From: the human T2T-CHM13v2.0 reference genome, Homo sapiens
Assembly: GCF_009914755.1 (NCBI RefSeq)
Contig: NC_060947.1
Strand: one strand, 5' to 3'
Length of the DNA stretch: 64,000 nt
Positions 269 to 35,604 of the stretch are shown piece after piece. Every line of letters starts with the position of its first letter. The stretch's first letter is position 1. The notes beneath the pieces were generated by a model. That model saw only the letters and a program-made list of their open reading frames with translations, had not been told where the DNA came from and did not search any database. A program made the position numbers and the translations under genes.

Positions 269-2237
269 ATGATCCTTTTAAGAGAGTTCTATCCCATACT
301 AATTCAAAGTCAACATGGTGTTTCATATAATCTTGTTGTAATAGTCTCTTGGTGGTGGACATCCGGCACCTAACACAGTGCCCAGCACATGTTGGAGTGT
401 CAAGAATTAATGATTGAAAGTGAATGGAAAAAAGGTATATATCTCCTCCCAAAACATCAGGAGATTGAATATAAAGGACACATCTTCCTTCTATAATGTG
501 ACAGATGCACTCTATAGTTACTGTTTGAGAGTTTTTTTAGTGCAAACTATTTACCTCTTAGGCTAAATTTAATTTACAAATGGAATCATTAGTAGTGAAG
601 ATATAGCAGGGTGCCTTCCAGATTCCTCTGCTGTGATCTTCAAATGAATAAGCACTGCAGATTAGTCAACCTTCTGAAAAGTTCTTAATTAAGGAAACCA
701 ATACTGTGCAGAATAACAGCCTGTGTGTTAACCTTGTTGACACAGTGTAGAAATCTCATGTAGATAGCTAGTACAAAAGAATAAAAATGTTGTTCTAGTT
801 TCTAAAGTGGCGTTTCCAAGGAATTATACTTCTAATGAAAATTGCTGCTGTGGATGTCTGTTCAAAGGCTTTGGCTTACAAAGTAAAGATTTGAAAATAT
901 CAAACTTGCTTAATCTCTGAATGTTGTTTTCATTCATTAGGTGAATATGACAGCTCTCTCTTTACCCTAATCGCCCCCCCTGGAGGAAATAACATTTTTG
1001 TTTGTCTAAACAGTACTTAATGACTACTCTAAAATTAGAGTTTAAGATCTTTAACTCTAGAGTGCAAAGCTCTACGTCCTTGACTCTGACGTTTATCATG
1101 AATATTAATTTCTGATCTTAAAGTCAAGCCATGAAATTTTTATATATTATCATACATTTCCCTTGACAGTTTTTGTAATTGCCGTAATTTCCTCATCAGC
1201 AAGAGTTGTTTGTGGCTCTCCTGGTCTGAGGAGGCTATAAATTTGGCAGCTTTGAATTCCCTCTTTTGTTTGAATGTGGAACCATCGACTTGTTTACTCT
1301 GAACATTAACTAGATCTCAGATCTTAAAAGAACTATAGTTTTTATTGGTGCCTTTACATGACAAAAGACTCAATATATTTGTTGCCATTACATGTTTTCA
1401 TTGTTACCTTTGGATTGACTTTCTTGTTAGGGGAGATTTATGTCCATCTTCAGATACTTTTCCTGCTACTCACATAAAAATGTTATTTTCTGCCACATAG
1501 CTACCATTTTCTTTAAAATTGATTTATTAGTAGTGTTTGATTATCGAATACCAGACTGTATATATTCACATTGTGTATAAGTATCCAACATGAAAATTAT
1601 TTAGACAATATTCATGGACATGTATACATAAACACACATACTTTTTAATATATGTAATTCAACTGAAATGTTATCTTCCGTTTGTACTTTCAACAAAGAT
1701 TTATCGAACATCTACTACACATCAGGCCTGGATTTTTTTCTGCACACAGGAATAAAAATAGACAAGACACAAATTGGCCTGAAGATGCCACAGTCAACCA
1801 GGCAAACAGACAGACTCATAAAAAATTATCTGTATCACTGTACGGCAAATGCTGTTAAAAATATGGTGACAAAGAGCTGTTGCAACCAGAGAGACTCAGG
1901 GATGGATACACAGAAGACAGGTCTCTGAGGCTACACGAGATAGATCTTTCTTCCCAGAGAAATTGAAAGGGCATGTTATTTTACACAGTAGGAGTGGCCA
2001 GACATGGTGATTTAGTAAAAGAGCTTCAGAAGGGAAAAGCAACAGATACACGTGGCTGGAGTGAAAAGTGCAAAGTGGTGCGTGGGAAAGAAACAGAAGC
2101 TAGAAAGTTAACTTTTGGATAGATTTGGGAAGTACCCAAGAATAGAATCTCAGGTTCAGGTGTTTGACTTTTTTTTTCTTAGGACCTGAAGACAGTGATC
2201 CAGGATGGCCTAAATGTCGCAGAGAAAATTATTCTAT

Positions 2238-32070: not shown

Positions 32071-32152
32071 ATGATTGTTATTTTTAATATCTATAGGAAA
32101 CCAAATAATATGAAATGTCACAAATTATTTTTGAAAATACTATTCTAAGGTC

Positions 32153-32183
<31 letters not shown>

Positions 32184-32666
32184 TTCTATATCAATTTTTA
32201 TTCCTTCATTGTTACGAAACAGATGAATAATCCTTGGCAGATATACTTGAGAGAAGACTCTTCTCTCTTCCTGACTGGGGTCCAAGTAGTCCTAATCCCA
32301 TTTATCCGCATCTGTATATTCCACATTGGATTTGTCTCACACATGTCCTTCTTGAGATGTTACTTCTGTGTTTGAGCCAGATTCTCTGTCTAGAAAATTG
32401 TCCTTGGTTATACCTGCTCAATGTTTGCTATTAATAATGATATACATCATAATCATTTAAAAAGCCCAAAACTATAACAACCCTTTAGATTAAAGATACA
32501 TGCTCCATTGGCAGCCCTCAAGCCATTTATTTTCACAATGTGCTGAGTTTAACTCACTCATTCATTTATAAATTGACTTGGTTGCCAATATTTGGAATCA
32601 GAAGATGTTTATCCCAAATCCAGCTTTCCATGGGAAATCAGGTAACATGGGAGAACTTGGCCCATA
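32153..32666 (-). other. SVA-mediated 3' transduced segment with its own polyA signal and tail
   Basis: Lies between the SVA's internal tail and the left TSD; T28 at 32153-32180; minus-strand AATAAA at 32197-32202. Confidence 0.88.
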
Positions 32667-32668
32667 TT

Positions 32669-32714
<46 letters not shown>

Positions 32715-35410
32715 TTTTTTTATTGATCATTCTTGGGTGTTTCTCGCAGAGGGGGATTTGGCAGGGTCATAGGACAATAGTGGAGGGAAGGTCAGCAGAT
32801 AAACAAGTGAGCAAAGGTCTCTGGTTTTCCTAGGCAGAGGACCCTGCGGCCTTCCGCAGTGTTTGTGTCCCTGGGTACTTAAGATTAGGGAGTGGTGATG
32901 ACTCTTAACGAGCATGCTGCCTTCAAGCATCTGTTTAACAAAGCACATCTTGCACCGCCCTTAATCCATTTAACCCTGAGTGGACACAGCACATGTTTCA
33001 GAGAGCACAGGGTTGGGGGTAAGGTCACAGATCAACAGGATCCCAAGGCAGAAGAATTTTTCTTAGTACAGAACAAAATGAAAAGTCTCCCATGTCTACT
33101 TCTATCCACACAGACCCGGCAACCATCCGATTTCTCAATTTTTTTCCCCACCCTTCCCGCCTTTCTATTCCACAAAACCGCCATTGTCATCATGGCCCAT
33201 CCCCAATGAGCCGCTGGGCACACCTCCCAGACGGGGTCGTGGCCGGGCAGAGGGGCTCCTCACTTCCCAGTAGGGGCGGCCGGGCAGAAGCGCCCCTCAC
33301 CTCCCGGATGGGGCAGCTGGCCGGGCGGGGGGCTGACCCCCCCCACCATCCTCCCGGACGGGGCGGTTGGCCAGGCAGAGGGGCTCCTCACTTCCCAGTA
33401 GGGGCGGCCGGGCAGAGGCGCCCCTCACCTCCTGGATAGGGCGGCTGGCCGGGCGGGGGGCTGACCCCCCCACCTCCCTCCCGGACGGGGCGGCTGGCCG
33501 GGCAGAGGGGCTCCTCACTTCCCAGTAGGGGCGGCCGGGCAGAGGCGCCCCTCACCTCCCGGACGGGGCGGCTGGCCAGGCGGGGGGCTGATCCCCCCAC
33601 CTCCCTCCAGGATGGGGCGGCTGGCCAGGCGGGGGGCTGACCCCCCCACCTCCCTCCCAGACGGGGCGGCTGGCCGGGCAGAGGGGCTCCTCACTTCCCA
33701 GTAGGGGCGGCCGGGCAGAGGCGCCCCTCACCTCCCGGACTGGGTGGCTGGCCCGGCGGGGGGCTGACCCCCCCACCTCCCTCCCGGACGGGGCGGCTGG
33801 CCGGGTGGGGGCTGACCCCCCCCACCTCCCTCCCGGACAGGGCGGCTGGCCGACCCCCCCCCCCGCCTCCCTCCCGGACGGGGCGGCTGGCCGGGCAGAG
33901 GGGCTCCTCACTTCCCAGTAGGGGCGGCCGGGCAGAGGCGCCCCTCACCTCCCGGACGGGGCGGCTGGCCAGGCGGGGGGCTGATCCCCCCACCTCCCTC
34001 CCGGACGGGGCGGCTGGCCGGGCGGGGGGCTGACCCCCCCACCTCCCTCCCGGACGGGGCGGCTGGCCGGGCGGGGGGCTGATCCCCCCACCTCCCTCCC
34101 GGACTGGGCGGCTGGCCGGGCGGGGGGCTGACCGCCCCACCTCCCTCCCGGACGGGGCGGCTGGCCGGGCAGAGGGGTCCTCACTTCCTAGTAGGGGCGG
34201 CCGGGCAGAGGCGCCCCTCACCTCCCGGACGGGGCGGCCGGCCGGGCGGGGGGCTGACCCCCCCACCTCCCTCCCGGACGGGGCGGCTGGCCGGGCAGAG
34301 GGGCTCCTCACTTCCCAGTAGGGGAGGCCGGGCAGAGGCGCCCCTCACCTCCCGGACTGGGTGGCTGGCCGGGCGGGGGGCTGACCCCCCCACCTCCCTC
34401 CTGGACGGGGCAACTGGCCGGGCAGAGGGGCTCCTCACTTCCCAGTAGGGGCGGCCGGGCAGAGGAGCCCCTCACCTCCCGGACGGGGCGGCTGGCCGGG
34501 CGGGGGGCTGACCCCCCCCACCTCCCTCCCGGACGGGGTGGCTGCCGGGCGGAGACGCTCCTCACTTCCCAGACGGGGTGGCTGCCGGACGGAGGGGCTC
34601 CTCACTTCTCAGACGGGGCGGTTGCCAGGCAGAGGGTTTCCTCACTTCTCAGACGGGGCGGCCGGGCAGAGACGCTCCTCACCTCCCAGACAGGGTTGCG
34701 GCCCAGCAGAGGCGCTCCTCACATCCCAGACAGGGCGGCGGGGCAGAGGTGCTCCCCACATCTCAGACGATGGGCGGCCGGGCAGAGACGCTCCTCACTT
34801 CCTAGATGGGATGGCGGCCGGGCAGAGACGCTCCTCACTTTCCAGACTGTGCAGCCAGGCAGAGAGGCTCCTCATATCCCAGACGATGGGGGGCCAGGCA
34901 GAGACGCTCCTCACTTCCCAGACGGGTTGGCGGCTGGGCAGAGGCTGCAATCTCGGCACTTTGGGGGGCCAATGCAGGCGGCTGGGAGGTGGAGGTTGTA
35001 GCGAGCCGAGATCACGCCACTGCACTCCAGCCTGGGCACCATTGAGCACTGAGTGAACGAGACTCCGTCTGCAATCCCGGCACCTCGGGAGGCCGAGGCT
35101 GGCGGATCACTCGCGGTTAGGAGCTGGAGACCAGCCCGGCCAACACAGCAAAACCCCGTCTCCACCAAAAAAAAAACGAAAACCAGTCAGGCGTGGCGTC
35201 GCAGGCACTCGGCAGGCTGAGGCAGGAGAATCAGGCAGGGAGGTTGCAGTGAGCCGAGATGGCAGCAGTACCGTCCAGCTTTGGCTCGGCATCAGAGGGA
35301 GACCGTGGAGGGAGACGGAGACGGAGACGGAGAGGGGAGAGGGGAGAGGGGAGAGGGGAGAGGGGAGAGGGGAGAGGGGAGAGGGGAGAGGGGAGAGGGG
35401 AGAGGGAGAG
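32667..35410 (-). mobile_element. Full-length young SVA retrotransposon (D/E/F class; SINE-R variants recalled as SVA_E-like)
   Basis: All domains in order on the minus strand: CT-rich head 35311-35410, Alu-like ~34940-35300, GC-rich VNTR ~33215-34940, SINE-R ~32720-33215, AATAAA and A/(AAAT)n tail 32667-32724; CpGs largely intact. Confidence 0.97.
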
Positions 35411-35604
35411 CTATTCTAAGGTCTTTAGAAGCAAACAGTGCCATTGAGAATTCCTCAAAGCACTAAATTACAAAAATATTCACATAGATTTAAAGGTTAA
35501 ACCTGGCTTATAGCAGGTACTCAACTAATATTGAATGAATTAAATGAAACAACTCTTTATCTATCAGGTACCTTTACAAAGTGTACACTACCATTATGTT
35601 ATAA

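What the first reader, a model, noticed from the sequence alone, without database searches (positions are those of the whole stretch)
32140..35426. Full-length SVA with a ~490-bp 3' transduction: two tails, one TSD
Seen: the 16-mer ctattctaaggtcttt occurs at 32140-32155 and at 35411-35426, directly against the SVA 5' end. The left copy abuts a T28 run (32153-32180) about 490 bp beyond the SVA's own (AAAT)n/A tail (32667-32720), and a minus-strand AATAAA (32197-32202) sits 16 nt before that second tail. The nick site CTTT/AG is a variant of the L1 endonuclease TTTT/AA motif. Known: SVAs read through their weak polyA signal and mobilise 3' flanks using L1 ORF2p. Inference: 32181-32666 was copied from another locus and identifies an active source SVA.
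Basis: partly seen in the sequence, partly recalled or inferred. Interest (0 to 1): 0.8.

Follow-up and report, generated by a model that had tools for sequence, protein, structure and literature searches.

The report
SVA with chr6-derived 3' transduction
A young, full-length SVA retrotransposon in an IL1RAPL1 intron carried about 490 bases of chromosome 6 with it when it inserted, a well-known kind of event, and its parent copy on chromosome 6 is missing from this genome.

Summary
The 16-mer CTATTCTAAGGTCTTT occurs exactly twice in the window. It brackets a minus-strand composite: a full-length SVA, its own A13/(TAAA)n tail, about 490 bp of non-repeat DNA, an AATAAA 16 nt before the end, and a pure 25-28-nt poly(A).

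The extra DNA has exactly one other copy in this assembly, at chr6:64,619,555-64,620,043. It is identical at 489 of 489 bases and lies in continuous unique sequence. That site has no SVA beside it: it reads ...CCCATATT|ATGACA, an empty donor site with an L1-endonuclease-like T-rich nick. No SVA lies within at least 10 kb on the donor side.

So one L1-mediated event copied a read-through transcript of a chr6 SVA into chrX. The donor is not fixed: it is absent from T2T-CHM13. It also left no trace that I could see in a 35-genome non-reference SVA call set.

The element looks like SVA_E. No sibling carrying the same transduction was found in this genome.

The event is textbook biology. I could not run the ape empty-site check or the population check.

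The parts
32140..32155 (.). Left copy of the 16-bp target-site duplication. Its last 3 T merge with the tail.
   Evidence: exact 16-mer, present only twice in the window.
32156..32180 (-). Second (terminal) poly(A) tail. It is pure, 25 nt, or 28 nt if the 3 T of the duplication are counted.
   Evidence: T run 32153-32180, 100% matches. Absent at the chr6 source, which reads gtattttaat|agattc.
32181..32668 (-). 3'-transduced segment copied from chr6:64,619,555-64,620,043 of the same assembly. The two end bases on each side are ambiguous with the tails.
   Evidence: 2 places in the genome, both 100% over 486 bp; exact identity run of 489 bp (window 32180-32668 = L002 1500-1988), 0 mismatches. 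Not masked as a repeat in the hub's table.
32197..32202 (-). AATAAA polyadenylation signal used by the read-through transcript, 16 nt before the terminal tail.
   Evidence: At the chr6 source a GU-rich stretch (tgtgtaggttgtgg) lies about 33-46 nt past the cleavage point.
32669..32720 (-). The donor SVA's own tail, in sense A13 TAAAA (TAAA)n TAAAA, read through and copied as template.
   Evidence: Absent from the chr6 empty site.
32721..33215 (-). SINE-R module, ending in the SVA's own AATAAA.
   Evidence: 40 of 40 scored genomic matches at 99-100% identity (1788 first-look candidates); 2-3 mismatches in 490 bp (three of the six also differ by a 1-bp gap) against six other SVA copies.
33221..34945 (-). 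VNTR module, about 1.7 kb, with units of 37-49 bp and higher-order periods.
   Evidence: TRF periods 37, 40, 49, 127 and others.
34946..35307 (-). Alu-like module. It carries a 14-bp deletion relative to the labelled SVA_E rows I read (31-mer across the junction at 35183-35213).
   Evidence: aligns to the Alu-like part of other SVAs at 91.6-98.4% identity in the five copies that aligned; the deletion accounts for most of the gaps in the full-length alignments..
35308..35410 (-). 5' CT-rich repeat: CCGTCT units, then about 12 units of CCCCTCT. The element is full length.
   Evidence: 35329-35410, period 7, 11.9 copies, 97% matches; alignments to the 5' ends of other SVAs start at query base 1 for 2 of 6 copies.
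35411..35426 (.). Right copy of the 16-bp target-site duplication, directly against the SVA 5' end.

Best explanation
One L1-mediated (target-primed) retrotransposition inserted a read-through transcript of an SVA that sat, in minus orientation, at chr6:64,620,043/44 (T2T-CHM13 coordinates). RNA polymerase II ignored several AATAAA motifs: the SVA's own, those in its (TAAA)n tail, and one inside the flank. It ran about 490 nt into chr6 and was cleaved 16 nt after a flank AATAAA, then polyadenylated. L1 ORF2p nicked the chrX + strand at CTTT/AG in an IL1RAPL1 intron and primed on the new poly(A). It copied the flank, the donor's genomic tail and the whole SVA to its 5' end. A staggered second nick gave the 16-bp duplication. 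The insertion is recent, and the element looks like the human-specific SVA_E subfamily. The donor SVA is not fixed: this genome has the empty donor allele. Shown: the anatomy, the single identical chr6 copy, and the empty donor site. Inferred: read-through transcription, L1 ORF2p as the enzyme, that the donor ever existed at chr6, and human specificity.
For: (1) A 16/16 duplication sits exactly at both ends of the composite, and the 16-mer occurs nowhere else in the window. (2) The order inside the duplication is SVA, patterned tail, non-repeat DNA, AATAAA, 16 nt, pure T25-28. (3) The extra DNA matches 2 of 2 places in the 3.1-Gb assembly at 100%: itself and chr6:64,619,556-64,620,041. The exact run is 489 bp with 0 mismatches. 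(4) On chr6 the segment continues into unique sequence on both sides, with no tail or duplication. The 222 bp beyond the junction is single-copy, so chr6 is the parent and chrX the copy. (5) The chr6 junction reads CCCATATT|ATGACA, a T-rich nick of the L1 endonuclease type, as expected beside the tail of a minus-strand donor. (6) The internal tail is a (TAAA)n microsatellite, whereas the terminal tail is pure A. Fresh mRNA tails are pure A (established knowledge), so the internal tail was template-encoded in a genomic donor. (7) The chr6 cleavage site has AATAAA at -16 nt and a GU-rich stretch downstream. (8) SVA modules: the SINE-R is 99% identical to 39 of 39 other scored copies. By eye, the Alu-like part carries the motifs of the SVA_E-labelled rows of Table S2 of PMC12593883, not those of the D or F rows.
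Against: The donor SVA itself was not seen. There is no SVA in chr6:64,618,056-64,629,999 of this assembly. Among the rows I saw of the PMC12593883 tables (543 non-reference SVAs, 35 genomes), there is no non-reference SVA on chr6 between 48.3 and 87.4 Mb. There is also no transduction origin on chr6 between 44 and 69 Mb (I viewed 73 of 79 'chr6' places, and the 6 unviewed fall between sorted Table S2 rows at 121.8 and 138.8 Mb). No sibling carries the same segment in this genome, not even a 20-nt stub: of 3 hits, 2 are the known copies and the third is a chance match with no SVA beside it. I could not check GRCh38, other human genomes or apes. The nick sites CTTT/AG and TATT/AT are variants of the consensus TTTT/AA, not exact matches.
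Confidence: 0.92

Rival explanations
1. Template switch. L1 reverse transcriptase began on the poly(A) of an ordinary polyadenylated chr6 transcript, copied its last ~490 nt, then jumped to the 3' end of a separate SVA RNA. On this reading no SVA ever sat at chr6.
For: No donor SVA is visible at chr6 in this assembly. None appears in the rows I saw of the 35-genome call set. PMC12593883 proposes a template switch for one SVA-CKS1B chimera (passage). The chr6 site has a plausible stand-alone polyadenylation site.
Against: The SVA and the chr6 segment are separated by a 52-nt patterned A13/(TAAA)n tail. That is what a genomically encoded tail looks like, not a fresh mRNA tail. The terminal tail and the 489 identical bases show almost no post-insertion decay, so the pattern did not arise in place. 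In the CKS1B case the authors argued for a switch precisely because no tail separated the parts. The chr6 breakpoint also falls on a T-rich endonuclease-type site, which a random switch point need not do.
Confidence: 0.05
2. Two separate insertions. A processed copy of a chr6 transcript inserted first, and an SVA later landed exactly beside it, or the reverse order.
For: There are two poly(A) tracts in tandem.
Against: Only one duplication exists, and it encloses both parts. The SVA with its own tail has no duplication of its own: the bases after its tail (ATATGGGCC...) do not repeat the bases before its 5' end.
Confidence: 0.01
3. The 16-mer pair is chance or an assembly artefact, and the 490 bp reached chrX by DNA-level duplication.
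For: None found.
Against: An exact 16-mer sits at both precise element ends, against a chance mean of 0.11 for the looser 2-mismatch search. The copied segment ends exactly at a polyadenylation site and a tail, which are the marks of an RNA intermediate.
Confidence: 0.01

Closest known systems
SVA 3' transduction. Catalogued in reference genomes (Xing et al. 2006 PNAS, which I could not read), in T2T-CHM13 (bioRxiv 10.1101/2021.07.12.451456) and among polymorphic insertions (PMC12593883, PMC9311842, PMC12350158).
   Same: Read-through of the weak SVA signal, a flank carried between two tails inside one duplication, and a source traceable through the flank. The length fits: PMC12593883 gives a mean 3' transduction of 347 bp and a range of 9 bp to 4 kb. 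The terminal tail also fits: a mean of 29 nt for 3'-transducing SVAs (passages).
   Different: The source site is empty in the same assembly. PMC12593883 traced 84% of its transduction-carrying insertions to an identified source, and said that the rest may be lost or rare. I did not find this particular locus named in any text I could read.
L1 3' transduction (Pickeral 2000 and Goodier 2000, seen only as reference-list entries).
   Same: The same mechanism and the same enzymes. The transduced flank serves as a barcode for the progenitor.
   Different: The passenger here is the non-autonomous SVA, mobilised in trans by L1 proteins.
Template-switch SVA chimeras (the SVA-CKS1B pseudogene copies in PMC12593883).
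   Same: Non-SVA sequence lies 3' of an SVA inside one insertion.
   Different: In those chimeras no tail separates the parts, and the passenger is a 5'-truncated mRNA. Here a patterned genomic tail separates them, and the passenger is unspliced, unannotated flank.

Membership tests
SVA composite retrotransposon | Module order: 5' CT-rich (CCCTCT)n, antisense Alu-like, VNTR, SINE-R, poly(A). | tested here: met
   All five modules are present in order on the minus strand, 32669-35410. The CT-rich array is mostly a 7-mer variant.
L1-mediated (target-primed) insertion | Target-site duplication of about 4-20 bp at both ends. | tested here: met
   16/16 exact, unique in the window.
L1-mediated (target-primed) insertion | Terminal poly(A) and a T-rich endonuclease nick (consensus TTTT/AA, recalled). 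| tested here: met
   Pure T25-28. The inferred nick CTTT/AG matches 4 of 6 consensus positions. The consensus is recalled, not drawn from a call.
3' transduction | Non-element DNA between the element's own tail and a second tail, all inside one duplication. | tested here: met
3' transduction | Polyadenylation signal 10-30 nt before the second tail. | tested here: met
   AATAAA at 32197-32202, 16 nt before the tail. The same signal is at the chr6 source, with a downstream GU-rich stretch.
3' transduction | The carried DNA has a parent copy elsewhere, in continuous non-mobile context. | tested here: met
   chr6:64,619,555-64,620,043, 489/489 identical, with continuous flanks.
3' transduction | A donor element of the same family directly upstream of the parent copy. 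| tested here: not met
   There is no SVA beside the chr6 copy in this assembly, nor within about 10 kb on the donor side. This is what a polymorphic or lost donor would give. Other human genomes could not be examined. A missing donor is accepted in the literature for a minority of cases.
SVA_E subfamily (human-specific) | Subfamily-diagnostic bases in the Alu-like and SINE-R modules. | tested here: inconclusive
   By eye, the element has TTTTCGTTTTTTTTTTGG and GATGCCGAGCCAAAGCTGGACGGTACTG. These match rows labelled E in Table S2 of PMC12593883, not rows labelled D or F. Its SINE-R is 2-3 mismatches in 490 bp from two relevant copies. One is the CHM13 chr6:126.58-Mb SVA, whose flank matches the transduction of an E-labelled insertion. 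The other is a chr7:20.8-Mb copy that probably corresponds to the SVA_E source named in PMC9311842 (the coordinate mapping is inferred). No subfamily consensus was available for a formal test.
Human-specific or polymorphic insertion | Empty orthologous site in apes; presence/absence among humans. | not testable with these tools
   Only this one human assembly is held.

The most novel reading that the evidence does not exclude
The chr6 source SVA may be extinct or very rare in living humans. It is absent from T2T-CHM13 and unseen in the 35-genome non-reference call set. On that reading, the IL1RAPL1 copy is the only surviving record of a short-lived SVA_E source element, the 'stealth driver' type of progenitor. 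Its sequence, tail and insertion site could be recovered only through this offspring.
Probability: 0.35. Interest if true: 0.3.

Novelty: already known. Interest (0 to 1): 0.2.

Why it matters
The transduced flank is a barcode that fixes the parent-offspring relation of two loci and marks chr6:64.62 Mb as the site of a retrotransposition-competent SVA that never became fixed. This adds one data point on the turnover of SVA source elements. It also gives a clean, fully resolved teaching example. Biologically it is a routine intronic insertion, antisense to the X-linked intellectual-disability gene IL1RAPL1. No effect on the gene is shown or implied here.

Tried and rejected

(2) I tested a 14-bp deletion in the Alu-like module as a lineage marker. 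The 31-mer across it occurs in this element, in chr7:54,828,519-549 (0 mismatches) and in chr1:21,214,484-514 (1 mismatch). Those two SVAs are only 89.8-93.4% (CT-rich plus Alu-like) and 94.5-95.3% (SINE-R) identical to this one. I therefore rejected the deletion as a marker of close kinship; it is probably recurrent.

(3) Search for siblings with a short stub of the same flank: a 20-mer with up to 1 mismatch gave 3 hits. Two are the known chrX and chr6 copies. The third, chr7:54,905,039, has no SVA or tail beside it, so it is chance.

(4) Search for offspring of the chrX element: its 500-bp 3' flank has no second high-identity copy. Of the 40 matches scored (64 first-look candidates), the other 39 cover at most about 130 bp, at 73-100% identity.

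(5) Rfam scan of 32100-35450 at E up to 0.1: 0 matches. Four ORFs of 40 aa or more overlap the segment, the longest 86 aa. None was pursued.

(6) Literature. Searches for IL1RAPL1 with SVA and retrotransposon found 6 papers. I opened one, and its single IL1RAPL1 passage only lists the gene among those with 'tandem' SVA insertions (PMC10063665). PMC1693794 (Xing 2006) is not held. The PMC9311842 supplement is too large to read. The held PMC10681720 supplement text is 7,245 characters, with 0 hits for the approximate GRCh38 coordinates. A coordinate-prefix search of the PMC12593883 workbook gave 0 hits, so I listed the 'chr6' places instead. Unread supplements of these papers, and of the T2T repeat preprint, may list this locus.
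Full report
**Observation.** The region was read in full. The 16-mer CTATTCTAAGGTCTTT occurs exactly twice in the 64-kb window, at 32140-32155 and 35411-35426. The repeat finder reports the pair as family D8.

Between the two copies lies a minus-strand composite. In sense order it contains:
- a CT-rich 5' array at 35308-35410, of which 35329-35410 is a 7-mer with 11.9 copies
- an Alu-like module
- a VNTR of about 1.7 kb, 33221-34945
- a SINE-R module, 32721-33215
- a patterned tail, A13 TAAAA (TAAA)n, at 32669-32720
- about 490 bp that NCBI does not mask as a repeat (hub table)
- an AATAAA at 32197-32202, followed by 16 nt
- a pure A run, seen as T at 32153-32180 on the + strand (28.0 copies, 100% matches)

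Three refinements apply:
- The last three T of the duplication overlap the T run, so the added tail is 25-28 nt.
- The copied segment is 486-489 bp.
- The 5' array is a 7-mer variant of the hexamer.

**Where the extra DNA came from.** I searched the window's own assembly (3.1 Gb, 24 contigs) with 32181-32666. This gave 2 matches, both 100% over 486 bp: the query itself, and chr6 (contig C6) 64,619,556-64,620,041 on the same strand. A base-by-base walk extends the exact identity to 489 bp with no mismatch (window 32180-32668 = L002 1500-1988).

On chr6 the segment lies in continuous sequence. To the left it reads gtattttaat|agattc, with no A or T tract. To the right it reads cccatatt|atgacattcaca, with no SVA. 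BLAST of the SVA against chr6:64,618,056-64,629,999 found only matches of about 66-73% identity to resident Alu elements, and short matches of 87-92%. The 222 bp just past the right junction is single-copy.

Chr6 is therefore the parent and chrX the copy. The place where a donor SVA must have sat is empty in this genome.

**Mechanism.** A single duplication encloses the SVA, the first tail, the flank and the second tail. This makes it one insertion event rather than two.

The chr6 end of the copied segment coincides with a good polyadenylation site. It has AATAAA, then 16 nt, then the cleavage point, and a GU-rich stretch (tgtgtaggttgtgg) about 33-46 nt downstream on chr6.

The other end falls at CCCATATT|AT. 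This is a T-rich nick of the kind L1 endonuclease makes, and it is where the tail of a minus-strand donor would abut its target. The chrX nick is CTTT/AG. The consensus TTTT/AA is recalled, not tested here.

The best-supported reading has five steps:
- An SVA at chr6 was transcribed through several AATAAA motifs: its own, those in its tail, and one inside the flank (minus strand 32526-32531).
- The transcript was cleaved at the flank site and polyadenylated.
- L1 ORF2p reverse-transcribed it at a nick in an IL1RAPL1 intron.
- Synthesis reached the SVA 5' end.
- A staggered second nick gave the 16-bp duplication.

The anatomy and the chr6 parent are shown. Transcription, the enzyme and the former presence of the donor are inferred from established knowledge of L1-mediated SVA mobilisation.

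**The main rival.** The alternative is a template switch from a free chr6 transcript onto an SVA RNA, with no donor SVA ever at chr6. PMC12593883 proposes such a switch for an SVA-CKS1B chimera. The authors argued for it because no tail separated the parts (passage).

Here a 52-nt patterned (TAAA)n tail separates them. A fresh mRNA tail is pure A. The terminal tail of this same insertion is still pure, and the 489 bp show no change, so the pattern cannot have arisen on chrX. It must have been template-encoded in a genomic donor. I give this rival about 5%, and the other rivals (two nested insertions; chance or a DNA-level copy) about 1% each.

**Age and subfamily.** Zero differences in 489 bp, a pure 25-28-nt tail and a perfect duplication all point to a recent event. 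With a recalled rate of about 0.5e-9 per site per year on two lineages, zero differences gives a 95% upper bound of roughly 6 million years. This is a rough inference, and it does not by itself prove human specificity.

The SINE-R matched 1788 first-look candidates. Of those, 40 were scored, all at 99-100%. Six fetched copies differ by 2-3 mismatches in 490 bp, and three of them also by a 1-bp gap.

By eye, the Alu-like module carries motifs seen in rows labelled SVA_E in Table S2 of PMC12593883. It does not carry the motifs of rows labelled D or F.

Two of the near-identical copies can be linked to SVA_E:
- The chr6:126.58-Mb SVA has a flank that matches the transduction printed for an E-labelled insertion.
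- The chr7:20.8-Mb copy probably corresponds to the prolific GRCh38 SVA_E source named in PMC9311842 (passage). The coordinate mapping is my inference.

I had no subfamily consensus, so SVA_E is likely but not formally tested.

**The donor and other offspring.** No other copy of the flank exists in this genome. There is not even a 20-nt stub: of 3 hits, 2 are the known copies and 1 is a chance match with no SVA. The chrX element's own 3' flank has no second high-identity copy, so no offspring of it is visible here.

In the workbook of PMC12593883 (543 non-reference SVAs from 35 genomes) I listed 73 of the 79 places holding 'chr6'. The 6 unviewed places lie between sorted Table S2 rows at 121.8 and 138.8 Mb. 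No non-reference SVA lies on chr6 between 48.3 and 87.4 Mb, and no transduction origin lies on chr6 between 44 and 69 Mb.

The donor is thus absent from CHM13 and unseen in that call set. It could still be present in GRCh38 as a polymorphic reference element, which I could not check. Otherwise it is rare or lost. [quoted passage not shown]

**Comparison with what is known.** SVA 3' transduction is well documented:
- The T2T repeat preprint reports 55 highest-confidence SVA 3' transductions in CHM13 (passage).
- PMC12593883 finds transductions on 40% of non-reference SVAs. The mean 3' length is 347 bp, and the mean tail of 3'-transducing SVAs is 29 nt (passages).
- PMC12350158 reports 176 source SVAs (passage).

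This locus fits those figures. All defining features of a 3' transduction were tested and met, except a visible donor element. That feature is not met in this assembly, which is acceptable for a non-fixed donor.

I did not find this specific chrX/chr6 pair in any text I could read (searches; passages). Xing et al. 2006 and several supplements were not readable, so it may well be listed there.

**Verdict.** The finding is real and correctly interpreted, and it is ordinary. The only mild point of interest is that the parent site is empty in the same genome, so the insertion records a source SVA that never became fixed. Interest 0.2; the kind is already known.

Noticed in passing
window 35183-35213 (minus strand); also G000 chr7:54,828,519-549 and chr1:21,214,484-514: The Alu-like module has a 14-bp deletion relative to the SVA_E rows I read. 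The exact 31-mer across it recurs in one other SVA (chr7), and with 1 mismatch in a third (chr1). Those elements are only about 90-95% identical to this one, so the deletion seems to have arisen more than once, or to have spread by conversion.
   Followed up: partly
window 35329-35410: The 5' CT-rich array is about 12 copies of a 7-mer (CCCCTCT in sense) preceded by CCGTCT units, not the canonical CCCTCT hexamer.
   Followed up: no
window 32526-32531 (minus strand): A second AATAAA lies inside the transduced flank, about 140 nt past the SVA tail. The transcript read through it, as it did the many AATAAA motifs created by the (TAAA)n tail.
   Followed up: no
L012 (G000 chr6:126,575,200-126,580,800), bases 900-1003, minus strand: The 3' flank of this CHM13 SVA contains the same sequence as the 3' transduction printed for the SVA_E-labelled non-reference insertion SVA_Chr13_381 in Table S4 of PMC12593883. 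That source element is therefore present in this assembly. The printed origin coordinates nearly coincide with the CHM13 coordinates.
   Followed up: partly
window 32659-35415 (hub repeat mask): NCBI's mask splits this one SVA into two blocks (32659-33743 and 33753-35415). A paper lists IL1RAPL1 among genes with 'tandem' SVA insertions (PMC10063665). I did not check whether it means this locus, but here there is a single element.
   Followed up: no
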